Shown here in pieces: positions 1-15,673 of a stretch of 15,673 nucleotides of DNA. Positions within the stretch are counted from its first letter, which is position 1. Every line of letters begins with the position of its first letter. Source of the DNA: a virus; IMG/VR virus record IMGVR_UViG_3300045988_059271, positions 1 through 15,673 of that record. One strand, 5' to 3'. The position numbers were made by a program, and so were the translations under genes. Under the pieces are notes generated by a model that searched no databases, was not told where the DNA came from, and worked only from the letters and a program-made list of their open reading frames with translations.

Positions 1-99
1 CCGAAAAGCGGGCAAAACCGCCGGAATGTCCGCGGGACGCGGACACATCCGAAACGGCAACTCACTTTAGTCTGCTAAAGTGTCCGCGGGTGACGGACA
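1..99. repeat. Left inverted terminal repeat (ITR-L), 99 bp perfect
   Basis: Bases 1-99 are the exact reverse complement of 15575-15673, compared base by base. It contains three palindromic hairpin motifs: 27-45 tgtccgc/gggac/gcggaca, 63-82 cactttag/tctg/ctaaagtg, and 81-99 tgtccg/cgggtga/cggaca. Confidence 0.95.
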
Positions 100-140
100 A
101 TGGGTGTAGGGTTTATGTGTGTAGGATTAGTGATATAAAT

Positions 141-185
141 TTTCTAGAAATTTTTCTAGAAAAAGTATTGACATATTTCTAGAAA
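141..185. promoter_or_regulatory. Three identical 10-bp palindromes TTTCTAGAAA (141-150, 153-162, 176-185), putative operator array over early promoter P1
   Basis: Exact copies read directly. Copy 2 abuts the -35 box and copy 3 lies in the -35/-10 spacer. I saw no full TTCTAGAA copy elsewhere in the window. Confidence 0.6.
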
Positions 186-196
186 AGTTATATTGT
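168..196 (+). promoter_or_regulatory. Early promoter P1 (sigma-A/sigma-70 type)
   Basis: TTGACA at 168-173, a 17-nt spacer, then TATTGT at 191-196. It is preceded by AAAGTA, the same extended box seen at P2 and P3. Confidence 0.65.
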
Positions 197-1848: not shown

Positions 1849-1857
1849 GTGAATATA

Positions 1858-4017
1858 ATGTATAAATTAAATGTTCCCGTTATCATAAATGGAATTGAAT
1901 ATGTTTCACGTGAAAAAATTTATTCTGTTTATGATTTTCCTTTTTCCGATTTCCAGACGTTGCGCGAATGCCGCAAATGCGGAAGAAAGAAAAAACCTAT
2001 AGTTTATTATGACGTTGAAATGGCGTTTGATATTGAGACAACCACACTGGAAAAATTAGATTATAAACGCTATAATAAAACAGGGGAAAAAGTAATAAAA
2101 GGTGATGCTTTTATGTATCACTGGCAGTTCTGTTTAAAAGATACGGTCTGTTTCGGACGAACATGGAACGAGTTTATTCGTTTCTGTGAGGGTTTACATT
2201 TGTATTTGAAAACATCTGATACGAAACGCGCTGTAGTCTACGTTCACAATCTTTCATATGAATTTCAGTTCATGAAAGATTTCATTGAATTTGATGAAAT
2301 CTTTGCGCGGGATGCACATAAAGTTATGAAATGTTATGCGTATAAATACGGGATTGAATTTCGATGCTCGTATTTTTTAAGCAACATGAGTCTTTCAAAA
2401 TTTTGTGAAAACAGTGAGGGCGTAACCCACTATAAACTGGTTGATACGTATGACTATAAAAAACTACGTACACCAAAAACACCTTTAACGGACGTTGAAC
2501 AGGGATATTGTTACAACGATGTTCGAGGCTTGTGTGAGTGCATCCGCGCCTTACGGAAAGATGACAACCTTGCAGAAATCCCCCTTACATCAACTGGATA
2601 CGTCCGCCGTGAATTTCGCCGCGCCATGCAAGCAGATAGAGGCTATTATCCGGAAGTCTTTAACGATCTGGCATTAACCTTGCCGCAGTACCAACTCTGC
2701 AAAGATGCGTTCCGTGGCGGCAACACGCACGCCAGCCGCATCCACGCTGGGCACACGATCACGGCGAAAAAGGGTGAATCTGCGATCGTTATGGGTAGTA
2801 TGGATATTTCGAGCAGCTATCCGGCGCAGATCGCAACTGAGTATTATCCAATGAGTGCGTTCCGGGCGGTTGAGATCACAACGCAGGAACAGTTTGACAA
2901 CTTGTGTGCTACCCGCTGTGTTATTATGCGGGTACAATTTGATAATTTACACATCAAAGAAAACATTCCGGTACCATACATCCCGCTGTCGAAGTGCCAG
3001 AAGCACGGGAAAGATTGTGTGATTGATAATGGTCGAGTACTCTCTATTGACTGTTGCGAAATCGCAATGACAGAGATTGAGTTGGAGATCATAAAAAATC
3101 AATATGACTATGATTTCTTTACTGTCTCGGAGTGCTATGTAGCCGCGCGCGGCAAATTACCGGACAGTATGCGTAATACTATGATGGCGTTTTTTATCGC
3201 AAAGAGCCAGTTGAAAGGAAATCCCGATAAAGTCTATGAATACATGAAGTCTAAAAATAAGTTAAACAGTACGTTCGGTATGTGCGTGACCGATCTTTTG
3301 CAGGACGAATGGGCAATGGATGGTTTTACGGGTGAATGGCATCGGGAAAAAGCGGATGCGGAAAAAGCACTGAACACGTATTACGATGGAAAGAATAGTT
3401 TCCTACACTATCAATGGGGTATCTACGTTACCGCCCATGCAAGAAAGCAGTTACAAGATATGCTCGAAGTGGTTGGTATGGATGTAGTATACTGCGACAC
3501 GGACAGTATTAAGTTTTTGCATCCAGAAGTACACATTCCAGAATTTGAAGCGAAAAACAAATTACTTTCAAAACGTGCGATTGAAAACGACATTCCCGCG
3601 TTTTGCGATGTAGGTGAAAAACGCTACATTCTAGGCGTATGGGATATGGATGATCTGTATGTTCAGTTTAAAACCCTGGGGGCAAAGAAATATTGCGGAG
3701 TAGAATGGGACGAAAAAGCGGCACAATCCGGCAAAGACCCCGTGCGTTTTACGTCTACGGTCGCTGGCATGAACAAAAAATTAGGCGCGGAAAATATAAA
3801 GTGCTGTAATAATTTCCGTCTCTGCCGCAGAATGGAAAATGTCGGACGAACGATCAGTTGTTTTAACAACTCGAAACCGCATTATATCAACGTAAACGGG
3901 GAAGAAATTTTGACAGCTAGTAACATCGGAATTATTGATACTACTTATACATTAGGGGTATCGAATGAATACTATGAAGTGTTGGTAAACTCTCAAGACG
4001 GAGTGATACCGGAATAG
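1858..4017 (+). CDS. Family B DNA polymerase, protein-primed type (phi29 gp2-like)
   Basis: Exo I FDIETT (from nt 2029), Exo II HNLSYEFQF, Exo III YCYNDVRGL, motif A DISSSYPAQ, motif B KSKNKLNSTFGM, motif C YCDTDS (3490-3507), and GAKKY. The start is ambiguous between GTG 1849 (directly after the TP stop) and ATG 1858; neither has a good SD. Confidence 0.93.
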   Translation: MYKLNVPVIINGIEYVSREKIYSVYDFPFSDFQTLRECRKCGRKKKPIVYYDVEMAFDIETTTLEKLDYKRYNKTGEKVIKGDAFMYHWQFCLKDTVCFGRTWNEFIRFCEGLHLYLKTSDTKRAVVYVHNLSYEFQFMKDFIEFDEIFARDAHKVMKCYAYKYGIEFRCSYFLSNMSLSKFCENSEGVTHYKLVDTYDYKKLRTPKTPLTDVEQGYCYNDVRGLCECIRALRKDDNLAEIPLTSTGYVRREFRRAMQADRGYYPEVFNDLALTLPQYQLCKDAFRGGNTHASRIHAGHTITAKKGESAIVMGSMDISSSYPAQIATEYYPMSAFRAVEITTQEQFDNLCATRCVIMRVQFDNLHIKENIPVPYIPLSKCQKHGKDCVIDNGRVLSIDCCEIAMTEIELEIIKNQYDYDFFTVSECYVAARGKLPDSMRNTMMAFFIAKSQLKGNPDKVYEYMKSKNKLNSTFGMCVTDLLQDEWAMDGFTGEWHREKADAEKALNTYYDGKNSFLHYQWGIYVTAHARKQLQDMLEVVGMDVVYCDTDSIKFLHPEVHIPEFEAKNKLLSKRAIENDIPAFCDVGEKRYILGVWDMDDLYVQFKTLGAKKYCGVEWDEKAAQSGKDPVRFTSTVAGMNKKLGAENIKCCNNFRLCRRMENVGRTISCFNNSKPHYINVNGEEILTASNIGIIDTTYTLGVSNEYYEVLVNSQDGVIPE

Positions 4018-4988: not shown

Positions 4989-5097
4989 CTACATATGACG
5001 GCGATACGTGCCCCGACTGTCGGACGGTAACTTGTGTGTTTAAGTAATCTGTAGTTGATTGTTACAATCTTGTATGTTGAAAAACTCCATACGTGTG

Positions 5098-5130
5098 AGA
5101 GAGCTACGTTTTCCAGCGTAGCTCTTTTTA
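5098..5130 (+). terminator. Rho-independent terminator
   Basis: Stem gagctacg (5101-5108) pairs with cgtagctc (5117-5124) around the loop ttttccag, followed by TTTTTA. It can be extended by A:T and G:T pairs. Confidence 0.8.
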
Positions 5131-5252: not shown

Positions 5253-5298
5253 ATGTGAAAACGATAGAAAGGAGGATGTGAAACAAAAAATGTTTCAC
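5251..5298 (+). promoter_or_regulatory. GGATGTGAAA direct repeat plus an 8-bp-stem palindrome overlapping the uORF start
   Basis: ggatgtgaaa occurs at 5251-5260 and 5274-5283. The palindrome is gtgaaaca/aaaaa/tgtttcac at 5278-5298. GGAGGA is at 5271-5276. Confidence 0.5.
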
Positions 5299-5310
5299 GT
5301 AAAACAATGA
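5290..5310 (+). CDS. 6-codon upstream ORF (MFHVKQ) overlapping the ATPase start in ATGA
   Basis: ATG 5290 lies 13 nt after GGAGGA, the only SD in the region. Its TGA stop (5308-5310) overlaps ATG 5307 of the ATPase gene, which has no SD of its own. Confidence 0.35.
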   Translation: MFHVKQ

Positions 5311-6446
5311 TTTTTTGGAACGATATTCAATGGGAAAAACTTTTCGATGAATATAATTTGAAATTTGAAGCGGTAGACGATAACGGAAAACCAATTAAGT
5401 ATTACAACCCAATTCGGTTGTTTTCTGAGCCGGACGTTGACGGTGAATTCGCAGGTGTGGCAATTACGTGTTCCAACCGAAGTGCCGGAAAAACCAGTGC
5501 GTTTGCCGCGGCGAGTTGTATCTTGTGCAAAGAATATGGTTTGCAGACCGGATGGATTTTTCGGACAAAAGGGGAAATGACGGGAGCGGCGGCGATGTAT
5601 GAGGATATGTTGCAAATGTATCCAAAATTGGGTAGTGTGATTACCTATAAAAATCTGGATAAGAATGGAAATGTCGTGCGGTATTTTCTGGACGGTGAGC
5701 CATTCGGATGTGCGTTTAGCTTTGGAAGTAAGATGGACAGCGTGAAAAAATTATCGCCGTATTTTCGGGATATTTACTTTTTGTTTTTTGATGAGTTTTC
5801 CATGGAGAGTGGACAGTACGTAAAAGGAGAGAGCGAAAAACTCCAATCGTTGTTATTGACGATCAGCCGTGGAAACGGAAGTCAGTCAAGATGGTTTAAA
5901 CTGATTATGGCATCCAATAATATTTCGTTGCTCAATCCCTATTTTGTATTTTTTGGCATCCACAAACGGTATCAGAAAGAAACCAAAATGATGCATGGAA
6001 GTGGTTTTGTGTGCGAATTTACGCACAATGACAGTGCTAGTAAGGCGATGTGGGAAAATACTGCTCTGAAAGCATTCCGCGGCGGACACTATATGAAGAG
6101 CATGAGTGTAGGAGATCAGATGTTGATTGATGATGCCGTGTTTGTGCAAAAGCCGACCGGACGGTCGCGGTATCTGTTTACGATCGAGCACAGCGGAAAA
6201 AGTTATGGGGTGTATGAGTATTACGAAGAGGGTTACATCTATATTACGCACAACTATAACCCGTCTTGTAATTTTGTCGCGGTTTTTCGGGACGGAGATC
6301 ATACCCAAAACACGGTTATGTTGGAACACTATGATTATTTGTTTGAAAATCTAGTTGACGCATATCGCAAAGCATATTTGCGGTTTGACGATCTAGACAG
6401 CAAAAATATGGCGGTTGAGTTACTAGGGATTGATCTTTATAAATAG
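5307..6446 (+). CDS. DNA encapsidation (packaging) ATPase, phi29 gp16-like
   Basis: Walker A SNRSAGKTSA (GKT at 5487-5495) and Walker B FLFFDEF (DE at 5790-5795). IMASNNISLLNPYFVFFGI resembles phi29 gp16 ICLSNAVSVVNPYFLFFNL, and the C-terminal AYLRFDD resembles GYLRFDN. Confidence 0.9.
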   Translation: MIFWNDIQWEKLFDEYNLKFEAVDDNGKPIKYYNPIRLFSEPDVDGEFAGVAITCSNRSAGKTSAFAAASCILCKEYGLQTGWIFRTKGEMTGAAAMYEDMLQMYPKLGSVITYKNLDKNGNVVRYFLDGEPFGCAFSFGSKMDSVKKLSPYFRDIYFLFFDEFSMESGQYVKGESEKLQSLLLTISRGNGSQSRWFKLIMASNNISLLNPYFVFFGIHKRYQKETKMMHGSGFVCEFTHNDSASKAMWENTALKAFRGGHYMKSMSVGDQMLIDDAVFVQKPTGRSRYLFTIEHSGKSYGVYEYYEEGYIYITHNYNPSCNFVAVFRDGDHTQNTVMLEHYDYLFENLVDAYRKAYLRFDDLDSKNMAVELLGIDLYK

Positions 6447-6470
6447 TTCGTGGGAGACGGACAAAAGTAC

Positions 6471-6499
6471 TTGACATACGGATAAAAAAGATGTATCAT
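6471..6499 (+). promoter_or_regulatory. Promoter P3 (lysis and structural operon)
   Basis: AAAGTAC-TTGACA (6471-6476), a 17-nt spacer, then TATCAT at 6494-6499 with TG immediately upstream. Confidence 0.7.
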
Positions 6500-6509
6500 G
6501 AAAATACGG

Positions 6510-6579
6510 GGAAACCTTTTAAAAAGGGGTTGCCACGGTTGAGTAAACCGCCCTGTCCTTGGCAGGTCAAAAGGTTTCC
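6510..6579 (+). ncRNA. Structured leader or candidate small RNA (multi-stem element closed by an 11-bp stem)
   Basis: ggaaacctttt (6510-6520) pairs perfectly with aaaaggtttcc (6569-6579). Internal hairpins are cggtt/gagta/aaccg (6536-6550) and cctgtc/ctt/ggcagg (6552-6566). It starts a few nt after the predicted P3 transcription start. An alternative pairing is cctgtcc (6552-6558) with ggacagg (6591-6597). Confidence 0.45.
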
Positions 6580-6611
6580 TTGTTTTAATGGACAGGAAGA
6601 AAGGAGCAAAG

Positions 6612-6902
6612 ATGGCAAGTATCGTTTTTAATATGATTGTCGGAATGATGAAAAAAGAAAATGCTTATCTTGCTTATACGGTACGCTATAAAGCGGACGA
6701 AAAAGACACGCTGATCATTGTCCCTCATGAAAATTACGAGTCTCACATCCGGTATTTGTGGGATTTCTTTTTCATGGATGGCAACGCGTATAACAGTAAA
6801 TCGCCAGTTCGATTCATTCATAATTTTATTATGTGTGATAAATTAAGTGAAATTGAGGACTGGTTAAAATGGCAGGATAAGGAGGTAGAAACATGGATGT
6901 AA
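6612..6902 (+). CDS. Hypothetical protein (96 aa), first gene of the P3 operon
   Basis: ORF track gives 6588..6902. AAGGAG at 6601-6606 precedes the in-frame ATG 6612 by 5 nt, so 6612 is preferred. No family recognised. Confidence 0.55.
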   Translation: MASIVFNMIVGMMKKENAYLAYTVRYKADEKDTLIIVPHENYESHIRYLWDFFFMDGNAYNSKSPVRFIHNFIMCDKLSEIEDWLKWQDKEVETWM

Positions 6903-12035: not shown

Positions 12036-12995
12036 ATGTACAATAACCCGTATCGGGTGAGTAACAAAGAAGTGTGGGGACAATGGGAAAACAACCCGAA
12101 TACGTCACCGGAAGAAAAGATGTATTTTCGCCACTTTTTCGACAAGTTCGTAAATTTAGCATTATCACGTTATGAGTATGACGGTTTACCGGATGAGATT
12201 CCGCCGCGGATGCTCAACTCCTATCTGTTATGGCAGGGAATGTGTCTGTTCAAAAAAGAACCAATCACCGGACTTTTCGGAGTGTTTGGTGTTAATCTGG
12301 TTGGTGAACCAGACATTTACGGGATTCCGACTGATTGGATTGCATACGCCATGAATGGACAGTATTATGAACAGACCGACAAGGAAGAAAGCGCACTGAT
12401 TTTCGCAAGACCTTTTGCTGTACCGGAAATTCTCAGTATTATTCTGCACGCACAGAGCTTGGCAGAGAAAAAAGCGTCCACAAGGGTAAACGTTATTCAG
12501 CAGAGAACGCCAGTTGTTATAAGCGGGGATTCCACGCAGAAGTTATCCATTGACAACTTTATTCAGAAGTGGGTAAAAAATATTCCTTTCATCAAAGCAA
12601 AAAACGATCTGCGAAAACAGATTCAGATTGATACCATTGACTTGAAAGTACAGCCAATCTTTAACGAACTTGACACCGCCGCACAGAGAGAAGTAGCAGA
12701 ATGTCTGGCTGATCTCGGAATCGAAGCAAGCGGCGTGGAAAAACCGGAAAGGTTGGTTTCCGCAGAAACGAGTTACAATGATGGAGAGATTGAGTTAACG
12801 AGAAACGGAAATCTGGCAACCATTCAGAGGGGACTTGATGCAATCAATGAAATGTATGGTTTGAATATCCATGTACATTTTAATTCTAAGATGGTAACGC
12901 CGATTAACAGACCGGATGTATTCGACACGACAAATGCCGAAAACGACACACCGGAAAACAACGGAAACGGCACACCGGAAAGTGAGGTGGAATGA
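12036..12995 (+). CDS. Portal / upper collar connector, phi29 gp10-like
   Basis: [21 protein letters not shown] resembles gp10 [40 protein letters not shown] resembles [32 protein letters not shown] resembles INELYGLNVKVKF. Confidence 0.88.
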   Translation: [319 protein letters not shown]

Positions 12996-15550: not shown

Positions 15551-15598
15551 TGTCCGTCACCCGCGGACACGCCGTGTCCGTCACCCGCGGACACTTTA
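15551..15598. repeat. Right-end-specific tandem duplication of the innermost ITR hairpin (24-bp period)
   Basis: tgtccgtcacccgcggacac occurs at 15551-15570 and again at 15575-15594. The left end has a single copy (81-99). Confidence 0.85.
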
Positions 15599-15673
15599 GC
15601 AGACTAAAGTGAGTTGCCGTTTCGGATGTGTCCGCGTCCCGCGGACATTCCGGCGGTTTTGCCCGCTTTTCGG
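15575..15673. repeat. Right inverted terminal repeat (ITR-R), 99 bp perfect
   Basis: Exact reverse complement of 1-99. Weaker homology continues inward after the 24-bp duplication (15543-15550 versus 100-107, 6 of 8 positions). Confidence 0.95.

What the first reader, a model, noticed from the sequence alone, without database searches (positions are those of the whole stretch)
6500..6611. Structured RNA immediately downstream of P3: pRNA-like candidate or riboregulator of the late operon
Transcripts from P3 should begin a few nt before an element in which an 11-bp perfect stem (6510-6520 with 6569-6579) closes a multi-branch region with two hairpins (6536-6550 and 6552-6566). Two mutually exclusive pairings exist. 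cctgtcc (6552-6558) can pair with ggacagg (6591-6597), and the 3' arm uuuccuu (about 6575-6581) is complementary to the downstream SD region aaggag (6601-6606). That resembles a switchable leader controlling the first late gene or the whole operon. Alternatively, phi29-type motors need a phage-encoded packaging RNA, none is otherwise evident here, and this element lies directly after the ATPase gene. It matches no riboswitch or tRNA pattern I can recognise.
Basis: seen in the sequence. Interest (0 to 1): 0.65.

Follow-up and report, generated by a model that had tools for sequence, protein, structure and literature searches.

The report
Compact packaging RNA (pRNA) candidate
This 78-base RNA encoded just after the DNA-packaging ATPase gene of a small gut phage has the defining architecture of the phi29 packaging RNA, a motor component so far reported only in Bacillus phages, in a much smaller form that current databases do not recognise.

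Summary
The structure is real.

**Setting.** The window is a complete 15.7-kb phi29-like genome with 107-nt terminal inverted repeats, a gp16-type ATPase and a gp10-type connector.

**Fold.** A strong promoter-like site (TTGACA-17-TATCAT) should start transcription at about A6506, the first base of a 15-bp helix A (6506-6520:6569-6583). Inside helix A, comparative data support:
- a C helix, GGGG:CCCU;
- a 5' bulge, UUGCCA (R loop);
- an E hairpin;
- a short D hairpin with loop UUGGCA (L loop).

**Relatives.** Their ATPases are 33-87% identical, and they include the isolated Clostridium phages HM2 and CS229P1. All carry the same architecture directly after the ATPase stop codon, with every helix covarying. 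R/L changes in step (GACU/AGUC, GACA/UGUC, UGCA/UGCA, GUAGUC/GACUAC and others).

**Limits.** Rfam's pRNA model does not match, although it finds phi29's own pRNA. The RNA is about 40 nt shorter than phi29 domain I. Here it sits in the leader of the late operon with no terminator hairpin. A downstream segment (6590-6596) complementary to the core may add a regulatory layer. Function in packaging is inferred, not shown.

The parts
6471..6499 (+). Promoter P3: -35 TTGACA 6471-6476, 17-nt spacer, -10 TATCAT 6494-6499. Predicted start at about A6506, the first base of helix A.
   Evidence: 11 of 12 matches. Both hexamers are kept in close relatives while the spacer varies. The same promoter-to-helix-A spacing is seen in L136, L137, L373-L376, L219 and the HM2-type RNAs. 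The start site is inferred, not measured.
6506..6520 (+). Helix A, 5' strand (ACGGGGAAACCUUUU)
   Evidence: Pairs with 6569-6583. 11 of 15 pairs show changes on both sides across 44 sequences. The G.U pairs and the model scores (111.6 bits on + against 30.6 on -) fix the strand.
6526..6529 (+). C helix, 5' strand (GGGG), preceded by the variable junction 6521-6525
   Evidence: Pairs with CCCU 6551-6554. The outer pair goes G.U to G-C in 10 variants, is U-A in L219 and A-U in the automated fold of L138. It corresponds to GGG:CCC of phi29 pRNA.
6530..6535 (+). Bulge UUGCCA = right-hand (CE) loop. UGCCA 6531-6535 is complementary to UGGCA 6560-6564.
   Evidence: 5 Watson-Crick pairs. 98.6% paired in 44 variants, with one C-to-U change giving U.G. 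Other lineages carry other complementary loop pairs.
6536..6550 (+). E hairpin CGGUU-GAGUA-AACCG
   Evidence: 3 of 5 pairs have compensatory changes (U-A to C-G, G-C to A-U/U-A/C-G). UUGAGU (6539-6544) also forms the E loop of phi29; here its two U's lie in the stem.
6551..6554 (+). C helix, 3' strand (CCCU)
6555..6568 (+). D hairpin GUCC-UUGGCA-GGUC (internal U.U). Its loop is the left-hand (D) loop.
   Evidence: Pair 6558:6565 goes C-G to U-A (4 sequences) or U.G (2). The U.U position is a C-G pair in L219 and L138.
6569..6583 (+). Helix A, 3' strand (AAAAGGUUUCCUUGU)
6584..6586 (+). U tract directly after helix A: possible 3'-end or partial termination signal
   Evidence: At least 3 U follow helix A in nearly all near-clade sequences even where helix A has a different sequence. 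Model R2 cross-hits intrinsic terminators. Termination is inferred only.
6590..6596 (+). GGACAGG, complementary to CCUGUCC 6552-6558 (C-helix 3' strand plus D-stem 5' strand). It excludes the C helix and D stem of the pRNA-like fold.
   Evidence: Linked variants at 6554/6594: U-A, U.G, C-G and G.U. Sub-clades L136/L376, L137 and L374 have 8 Watson-Crick pairs to the same core region, p 0.005-0.017. It is lost in L373 and p is about 0.1 in the window itself.
6601..6614 (+). Shine-Dalgarno AAGGAG 6601-6606 and ATG 6612-6614 of the first late ORF (96 aa, 6612-6902)
   Evidence: no family match for the ORF.
5307..6446 (+). gp16-type DNA encapsidation ATPase, the presumed partner of helix A
   Evidence: PF05894, E = 5e-28; phrog_2150.
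12036..12995 (+). gp10-type connector (portal), the presumed docking site of the RNA ring
   Evidence: PF05352, E = 1e-31; phrog_2038.

Best explanation
Bases 6506-6583 encode a compact packaging RNA, a counterpart of phi29 pRNA.

**Proposed mechanism**
1. Host RNA polymerase starts at P3, at the base of helix A.
2. The RNA folds into a three-way junction. Helix A is formed by the 5' and 3' ends. A C/E arm carries the bulge UUGCCA and the E hairpin. A short D hairpin carries the loop UUGGCA.
3. By analogy with phi29, the bulge of one molecule pairs with the D loop of the next (UGCCA:UGGCA, 5 bp). This closes a ring on the connector end of the prohead.
4. The helix-A spokes dock the gp16 ATPase, which then pumps the protein-primed genome into the head.

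**Shown here:** the structure, its conservation, the loop complementarity and its covariation in relatives, the link to the ATPase gene, and the strand.

**Inferred:** the transcript ends, ring formation, and any role in packaging.

**Special to this lineage:** the RNA is the 5' leader of the late transcript. It would have to be released by partial termination at helix A plus the U tract, or by processing.
For: **Genome context**
- The window is a complete phi29-like genome: 107-nt terminal inverted repeats, type-B DNA polymerase, gp16 ATPase, phi29-type capsid protein, tail knob and connector.
- There is no other RNA candidate. Rfam finds nothing. Model R1 hits only 6504-6586.

**Fold in the window's clade**
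- 98.7% of cells are paired and 15 pairs change on both sides; 0 of 500 shuffles reach this, and the slid controls fall to 43-60% paired.
- The rival hairpin is broken by variants.

**Loops**
- R and L are complementary over 5 bp.

**Relatives**
- The same architecture starts 15-30 nt after the ATPase stop codon in the HM2-type relatives and 55-125 nt after it in the window's own clade, L138 and L219 (ATPase identity 33-87%). This includes the isolated Clostridium phages HM2 and CS229P1.
- In 13 HM2-type RNAs, 29 of 32 pairs covary.
- Their loop-loop helix was not part of the model that made the alignment. It is 100% paired, with compensatory changes in 3 of 4 pairs.
- Across 22 non-redundant folds chosen without looking at the loops, each RNA's own R/L match exceeds cross-pairings. 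Only 1 of 20000 permutations is as good.
- Regions after more distant ATPases give background values.

**Resemblance to phi29**
- phi29 core: GGG-bulge(AACC)-CUGA UUGAGU UCAG-CCC, D loop GGUU.
- Window core: GGGG-UUGCCA-CGGUU GAGUA AACCG-CCCU, D loop UGGCA.

**Transcription**
- In all lineages with a recognisable promoter, helix A starts 5-11 nt after the -10 box.
- HM2-type RNAs end in a terminator hairpin; by my own inspection, the phi29 sequence printed has a similar hairpin plus U run after its 120-nt domain.
Against: - Rfam RF00044 gives no match, even when only these 106 bases are searched at E up to 10. The same model scores phi29 at 145 bits.
- The RNA is 78 nt, against 117-120 nt in phi29. 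It lacks phi29's extended C helix and the bulges of helix A.
- Within the window's own clade the R/L bases hardly vary. Covariation of that pairing comes from sister lineages, and models R2 and R3 cannot link those to the window type by sequence.
- There is no terminator hairpin: the SD of the next gene follows 17 nt after helix A. A discrete small RNA is therefore not assured.
- Intermolecular and intramolecular loop pairing cannot be told apart from sequence.
- No experimental data exist.
Confidence: 0.72

Rival explanations
1. Cis-acting leader only. The structure is a riboswitch, attenuator or translational operator that controls the first late gene or the whole late operon. It would work by switching between the closed fold and the pairing of 6552-6558 with 6590-6596, or of 6576-6581 with the SD.
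For: - It lies between the strongest nearby promoter and the SD, with no terminator hairpin.
- The downstream complementary segment recurs in several sub-clades, with linked changes.
- The 3' strand of helix A is anti-SD-like.
Against: - Relatives encode the same architecture as a free-standing unit with its own promoter and terminator.
- What follows it differs: a tRNA, a terminator plus genes on the other strand, or a putative holin-like ORF (the last by my reading).
- No Rfam family matches.
- The alternative pairing is at chance level in the window (p about 0.1) and is lost in L373.
- A leader model does not explain the covarying bulge/hairpin-loop complementarity.
Confidence: 0.08
2. A structured small RNA of another function, for example a regulator of host or phage genes, or a replication cofactor. 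The bulge and hairpin loop would pair within one molecule as a pseudoknot, and the resemblance to pRNA would be convergent.
For: - The family cannot be linked to RF00044 by sequence or model.
- The short arms (4 bp each) might allow an intramolecular kiss.
- No experiment ties it to proheads.
Against: - It is found in genomes that encode a gp16-type ATPase and a gp10-type connector, always abutting the ATPase gene.
- It matches pRNA feature by feature.
- According to the literature read here, ATPases of this family depend on pRNA to dock on the connector (PMC11476376, PMC5066667). No other candidate RNA exists in this complete genome.
Confidence: 0.12
3. A generic 5' stem-loop that only stabilises the late mRNA, or a chance structure.
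For: The 5'-terminal helix starts at the predicted first base. The folding z-score of the whole leader is unremarkable (-1.24).
Against: - Compensatory changes occur in 15 pairs.
- The unpaired loops are strictly conserved.
- The internal three-way junction is conserved across ATPases down to about 46% identity.
Confidence: 0.03

Closest known systems
phi29-family prohead/packaging RNA (pRNA; Rfam RF00044, 'Phage_pRNA')
   Same: - Encoded by a phi29-like, protein-primed podophage with a gp16 ATPase and a gp10 connector.
- The transcript starts at the base of a helix formed by the 5' and 3' ends.
- Three-way junction.
- GGG(G):CCC(U) helix closing a 5' bulge plus a hairpin that contains UUGAGU.
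- A second hairpin whose loop is complementary to the bulge (phi29 AACC/GGUU; here UGCCA/UGGCA).
- The loop pair covaries among relatives.
   Different: - No match to RF00044. That model's gathering score is 100 bits and it describes the Bacillus phage RNAs.
- 78 nt instead of 117-120 nt.
- No extended C helix between the junction and the GGG:CCC pairs.
- Helix A is 15 uninterrupted bp, without the bulges of phi29.
- The D stem is only 3 pairs plus a U.U mismatch.
- The gene lies directly after the ATPase gene and ahead of the late genes, instead of at the left genome end under early promoter A1.
- No 3' terminator domain.
- The relatives are gut and Clostridium phages rather than Bacillus phages.
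Unannotated RNAs downstream of the ATPase genes of Clostridium phage HM2 (LT600745) and CS229P1-3 (OP172772-4), and of IMG/VR relatives (here called 'HM2-type')
   Same: - Same position, 15-30 nt after the ATPase stop codon.
- Same size (81-86 nt).
- Same order of helices.
- The same bulge/loop complementarity.
- A promoter that places the start at helix A.
   Different: - Not alignable to the window type with the models built here.
- C helix of 5-6 bp, and helix A interrupted by an internal loop.
- A strong intrinsic terminator follows 8-12 nt downstream, so they are free-standing small-RNA genes.
- Different loop sequences.
Riboswitch or attenuator leaders and HK022 put-type antitermination RNAs (structured RNAs directly after a phage promoter)
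   Same: Position at the very 5' end of a long operon transcript. Mutually exclusive pairings are possible.
   Different: - No Rfam match.
- The association is with the upstream ATPase gene, not with the downstream operon.
- Relatives carry it as a terminated small RNA.
- These classes do not have loop-loop complementarity that covaries.

Membership tests
pRNA (phi29-type packaging RNA) | Encoded by a phi29-like phage that has a gp16-family ATPase and a gp10-family connector | tested here: met
   PF05894, PF05352, PF25622 and PF20934 hits; PHROG hits; 107-nt terminal inverted repeats.
pRNA (phi29-type packaging RNA) | The 5' and 3' ends pair to form helix A, and the transcript begins at its base | tested here: met
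   15-bp helix with 11 covarying pairs. The promoter places the start at about 6506. The real RNA ends were not measured.
pRNA (phi29-type packaging RNA) | Three-way junction with a C/E arm (5' bulge plus E hairpin) and a D hairpin | tested here: met
   Descriptor search and pair counts. The rival two-hairpin drawing is rejected. The C helix has only one-sided changes in the near clade; its outer pair differs on both sides in L219 and L138.
pRNA (phi29-type packaging RNA) | The bulge (right-hand) loop and the D (left-hand) loop are complementary over at least 3-4 nt and covary among relatives | tested here: met
   5 bp in the window. Covariation in HM2-type relatives: 3 of 4 pairs, 100% paired. 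Only 1 of 20000 permutations matches the observed value across 22 lineages. Almost invariant inside the window's own clade.
pRNA (phi29-type packaging RNA) | Match to the Rfam RF00044 covariance model (gathering score 100 bits) | tested here: not met
   No hit at E up to 10, even on 106 bases. HM2 and CS229P1 are also negative. The positive control phi29 scores 145.4 bits.
pRNA (phi29-type packaging RNA) | Domain I of about 117-120 nt with a bulged helix A (for example the CCA bulge) and an extended C helix; a 3' domain II with a terminator | tested here: not met
   78 nt, helix A uninterrupted, no extra C helix, no terminator hairpin before the SD. HM2-type relatives do have a terminator and an interrupted helix A.
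pRNA (phi29-type packaging RNA) | Binds proheads as a ring and is required for RNase-sensitive DNA packaging | not testable with these tools
   Needs experiments. HM2 and CS229P1-3 are isolated phages in which this could be done.
Riboswitch or cis-regulatory leader | Conserved association with the regulated downstream gene, and an expression platform (terminator/antiterminator or SD sequestration) | tested here: not met
   The downstream context differs among relatives. The SD is unpaired in the predicted folds. The alternative pairing is only weakly supported.
Riboswitch or cis-regulatory leader | Match to a described RNA family | tested here: not met
   No Rfam family reaches its threshold. 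The best sub-threshold hits are short chance matches.
Intrinsic terminator | G+C-rich hairpin with a short loop, followed by a U run | tested here: inconclusive
   Helix A is followed by UUUU, and model R2 cross-hits real terminators. But the 'loop' is a 48-nt junction and the consensus scan does not list it.

The most novel reading that the evidence does not exclude
The element is a two-state RNA: a miniature pRNA that is also the terminator/leader of the late operon.
- Helix A plus the U tract would end a share of transcripts, giving free pRNA.
- Read-through would give the late mRNA.
- In the late mRNA, the conserved downstream segment (6590-6596 here, 6-8 nt in sister clades) would pair with the C-helix/D-stem core. 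This would disable the prohead-binding fold, so that long mRNAs do not poison packaging motors.
- Sister lineages would solve the same problem with a tRNA-like processing signal or with a separate terminator.

This would make pRNA far more widespread than thought (Clostridia and gut phi29-like phages). It would also tie motor-RNA supply directly to structural-gene transcription.
Probability: 0.2. Interest if true: 0.85.

Novelty: new variant of a known kind. Interest (0 to 1): 0.75.

Why it matters
**What the literature says.**
- pRNA is the only known RNA that is an essential part of a viral DNA-packaging motor.
- The literature read here describes it only in phi29-related phages. A 2024 review calls it unique to phi29 and related Bacillus phages (PMC11476376). 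A 2016 review says phi29 and its relatives are the only phages known to need it (PMC5066667). A 2025 search that used Bacillus-phage pRNAs as seeds added 12 more (PMC12670572).
- A 2012 paper on Clostridium perfringens podophages mentions pRNA only as the partner of the ATPase and reports no pRNA gene (PMC3362512).

**What this finding would add if correct.**
- A second, much smaller pRNA class (about 80 nt) in gut and Clostridium phages, always next to the ATPase gene.
- A minimal natural design of the ring-forming three-way junction, which is widely used in RNA nanotechnology.
- A way to annotate the missing motor RNA in many metagenomic phi29-like genomes.
- New data on whether pRNA is ancestral in this phage group.

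It can be tested directly, because HM2 and CS229P1-3 are isolated phages.

Tried and rejected
- **Rfam.** Gathering and E-value scans of the window, of the 106-nt element alone, of 20 related loci and of HM2/CS229P1 gave nothing relevant. They found only tRNAs in L219 and L310 and phi29's own pRNA.
- **tRNA or tmRNA in the window:** none.
- **Nucleotide search of GenBank phages:** one weak hit in the lysin region, of no help.
- **MAFFT alignments across sub-clades:** they put the helices out of register. I replaced them with model-based alignments.
- **Model R2 (window type) against distant lineages:** it found only terminators, and only weak full-length matches at the right place in L336 and L338. 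**Model R3 (HM2 type):** it does not hit the window. Homology between the two types therefore rests on architecture and gene order, not on sequence.
- **First descriptor search:** it added a bonus for loop complementarity and picked A+U-rich false positives. I replaced it with a structure-only ranking before testing the loops.
- **Alternative pairing, shuffle test with G.U allowed:** not significant, because the SD region is purine-rich. With Watson-Crick pairs only it is significant in some sub-clades but not in the window.
- **ATPases at about 25% identity (L231-L298):** a gene follows at once and there is no such RNA. I used these as a negative control.

Full report
**1. What the window is**

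The main ORFs all lie on the + strand. They encode a type-B DNA polymerase (1849-4017), a gp16-type encapsidation ATPase (5307-6446), lysins, a phi29-type major capsid protein, a tail knob and a gp10-type connector. Bases 1-107 and 15567-15673 are 97% complementary inverted repeats. The window is therefore a complete 15.7-kb linear phi29-like genome, and any phage-encoded packaging RNA must lie inside it. No nucleotide-level relative exists among GenBank phages. IMG/VR holds well over a hundred close relatives, most from one large sample set (3300045988). The only GenBank nucleotide hit and several of the ATPase protein hits are bacteriophage records from human faeces.

**2. Checking the observation**

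The sequence at 6500-6611 is as described, with small corrections.
- The perfect 11-bp stem is part of a 15-bp helix, 6506-6520:6569-6583.
- GGACAGG is at 6590-6596.
- The promoter-like site TTGACA(6471)-17-TATCAT(6499) is joint best in the window. It puts the start at about A6506, the first base of the helix.
- Thermodynamics alone is not convincing: z = -1.24 for 6505-6615 and -2.75 for 6506-6586.
- Rfam finds nothing at any threshold. The same library finds phi29's pRNA at 145 bits.

**3. Which fold is conserved**

Sixty-five distinct versions of the region from close relatives were found. Six intermediate relatives, with ATPases 71-87% identical, were fetched from Logan and ENA assemblies. 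Both sets were aligned to a covariance model of the window clade.

For the proposed fold:
- 98.7% of 1407 cells are paired.
- 15 pairs change on both sides: 11 of 15 in helix A, 3 of 5 in hairpin 6536-6550, and 1 in the short hairpin 6555-6568.
- No shuffle out of 500 reaches this.
- Sliding the 3' partners by 1-3 columns drops pairing to 43-60%.

The common T6554C change and the G6565A change break it: 16 unpaired cells and no compensation. The same changes fit the proposed fold:
- T6554C turns G6526.U6554 into G-C.
- C6558U/G6565A is a C-G to U-A swap in the short hairpin.

Strand is settled by the G.U pairs and by 111.6 bits on + against 30.6 bits on -. A model built only from the intermediate and more distant relatives finds the window element at 88 bits, E = 1e-20, and nothing else in the window.

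**4. The architecture**

In 5'-to-3' order:

| Element | Coordinates | Sequence |
|---|---|---|
| Helix A, 5' strand | 6506-6520 | ACGGGGAAACCUUUU |
| Variable junction | 6521-6525 | AAAAA |
| C helix, 5' strand | 6526-6529 | GGGG |
| Bulge (R loop) | 6530-6535 | UUGCCA |
| E hairpin | 6536-6550 | CGGUU-GAGUA-AACCG |
| C helix, 3' strand | 6551-6554 | CCCU |
| D hairpin | 6555-6568 | GUCC-UUGGCA-GGUC |
| Helix A, 3' strand | 6569-6583 | AAAAGGUUUCCUUGU |
| U tract | 6584-6586 | UUU |

The bulge UGCCA (6531-6535) is perfectly complementary to the D-loop UGGCA (6560-6564).

This is the layout of phi29 pRNA domain I. There, GGG:CCC closes the CE bulge (AACC) and the E hairpin CUGA-UUGAGU-UCAG, and the D loop carries GGUU. 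The motif UUGAGU recurs in the window. The window RNA lacks phi29's additional C helix and the bulges of helix A. It is about 40 nt shorter.

**5. Relatives**

A descriptor for this architecture ranked folds by helix strength only, without looking at loop complementarity. It was run on the 400 nt around the ATPase stop codon of 85 loci. In many lineages it finds a strong fold beginning 15-30 nt after the stop. The loop pairs differ but are complementary:

| Lineage | R / L |
|---|---|
| Window and near clades | UGCCA / UGGCA |
| L138, L219 | UGCC / GGCG |
| L221, L223, L226 | GACU / AGUC |
| L222 | GACA / UGUC |
| L300 | AGACA / UGUCU |
| L229 | GUAGU / ACUAC |
| L304 | AACU / AGUU |
| L227 | UGCA / UGCA |
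| L307, L314 | ACCA / UGGU |

Statistics on these automated folds:
- Over 22 non-redundant folds, false positives included, the mean Watson-Crick run between an RNA's own R and L loops is 3.0, against 2.25 for cross-pairings.
- 7 of 22 reach 4 or more pairs, against 6.5% of cross-pairings.
- Only 1 of 20000 permutations is as good.
- Regions after ATPases of about 25% identity, where a gene follows directly, give only background.

The closest isolated phages carry it too. Both folds below were read by eye from the sequence.
- Clostridium phage HM2 (42.7% ATPase identity) has GUAGUC/GACUAC, 6 bp.
- CS229P1 (33.6%) has CUGUA/UACAG.

A third model, built from five HM2-type RNAs, recovers 13 members, HM2 among them at E = 1.6e-5. 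On that alignment:
- 29 of 32 pairs change on both sides, with 94% of cells paired against 64% in shuffles.
- The loop-loop helix was not in the model. It is 100% paired, with compensatory changes in 3 of its 4 pairs.

This is the signature used in the literature to recognise pRNAs (PMC12670572; PMC5066667).

**6. Transcription units**

In the HM2 type:
- The -35 TTGACT lies in the last codons of the ATPase gene.
- Helix A starts 5-8 nt after the -10.
- A strong terminator follows 8-12 nt after helix A. This gives a free-standing small-RNA gene; the phi29 sequence likewise shows, by my own inspection, a hairpin plus U run after the 120-nt domain.

In L219 and L310 an Rfam-positive tRNA with an oversized anticodon region abuts the RNA. 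L138 has a T-arm/CCA-like stretch. This suggests release by tRNA-processing enzymes, which is inference.

In the window's clade there is neither. Helix A is followed by a conserved U tract and, 17 nt later, by the SD of the first late ORF. The RNA is thus the 5' leader of the late transcript. It would need partial termination or processing to be released. Model R2 cross-hits genuine terminators, which shows that helix A plus UUU looks terminator-like. None of this was testable here.

**7. The alternative pairing**

CCUGUCC 6552-6558 is complementary to GGACAGG 6590-6596. It uses bases of the C helix and the D stem, so it excludes those two helices of the pRNA-like fold.

In favour:
- Close variants show U-A, U.G, C-G and G.U at 6554/6594.
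- Sub-clades L136/L376, L137 and L374 have different 8-bp Watson-Crick matches to the same core (AGACAGGG, ACAGGGCG, ACAGGGCA). Against shuffles these give p = 0.005-0.017.

Against:
- In the window itself p is about 0.1.
- With G.U allowed it is at chance, because the SD region is purine-rich.
- L373 has lost it.

I regard it as a probable lineage-specific secondary feature of unknown role. It is what one expects from the anti-SD-like composition of that strand in all near clades.

**8. Conclusion and comparison**

The element works like, and is most likely a divergent form of, pRNA. It meets the architectural and contextual criteria. It fails the Rfam model and the size and bulge features of the Bacillus-phage RNAs. 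Its function is untested. The papers found here describe pRNA only in phi29-related phages, and the 2024 review calls it unique to phi29 and related Bacillus phages (PMC11476376, PMC5066667, PMC12670572). The paper found on Clostridium perfringens podophages does not report one (PMC3362512). My literature search covers only the held library, so earlier reports elsewhere cannot be excluded. I file it as a new variant of a known kind, with confidence 0.72 for the pRNA reading.

Noticed in passing
window 1-107 and 15567-15673: 107-nt inverted terminal repeats, 97% complementary. The window is a complete linear genome of the protein-primed type.
   Followed up: partly
window 28-44, 82-98, 6446-6462, 15552-15568, 15576-15592, 15630-15646: The palindrome GTYCG-N7-CGGAC gives 13 strand-hits against 0.95 expected. 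It occurs two or three times in each terminal repeat and once over the ATPase stop codon, just upstream of the -35 box of P3 (9 nt between them). It is kept at that place in L136, L137, L375 and L376, and with one mismatch in L373. It is a candidate operator shared by the replication origins and the pRNA/late promoter.
   Followed up: partly
window 134-190: Repeated TTCTAGAA palindromes flank and overlap promoter P1 (TTGACA 168 / TATTGT 196). They may be a repressor or activator site for the leftmost operon.
   Followed up: no
window 5096-5130 and 5270-5311: A terminator-like hairpin (GAGAGCUACG...CGUAGCUCUUUUU) lies in the 319-nt gap before the ATPase gene. Further on, an 8-bp hairpin GUGAAACA/UGUUUCAC and a 6-codon mini-ORF end in ATGA, overlapping the ATPase start codon. 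This suggests translational coupling or control of the ATPase.
   Followed up: no
L219 2734-2811; L310 2715-2783; L138 about 3895-3930: tRNA genes (Rfam, 56 and 54 bits) with 16- or 10-nt oversized anticodon regions directly abut the pRNA-like RNA. L138 has a T-arm plus CCACCA-like stretch that ARAGORN does not call. They may act as processing signals that release the RNA from the late transcript.
   Followed up: partly
L378 (HM2) 1770-1960; L220-L229, L300, L304 around 2500-2720: In HM2-type phages the -35 box of the RNA's promoter lies in the last codons of the ATPase gene (for example gtt gac tta tat aaa taa). A strong terminator follows the RNA.
   Followed up: partly
window 6506-6514 and 6575-6583; same positions in L136, L137, L374-L376: The outer part of helix A is conserved in composition: the 5' strand is SD-like (GGGGA/GGAG) and the 3' strand is anti-SD-like (UUUCCUY/CCUCC). 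This could reflect ATPase recognition or interplay with ribosomes.
   Followed up: no
L231-L298 (ATPases about 25% identical): In this larger group of 17-19.7-kb phi29-like contigs the ATPase gene is followed at once by another gene, and no pRNA-like fold is found there. If they have a packaging RNA it lies elsewhere.
   Followed up: partly
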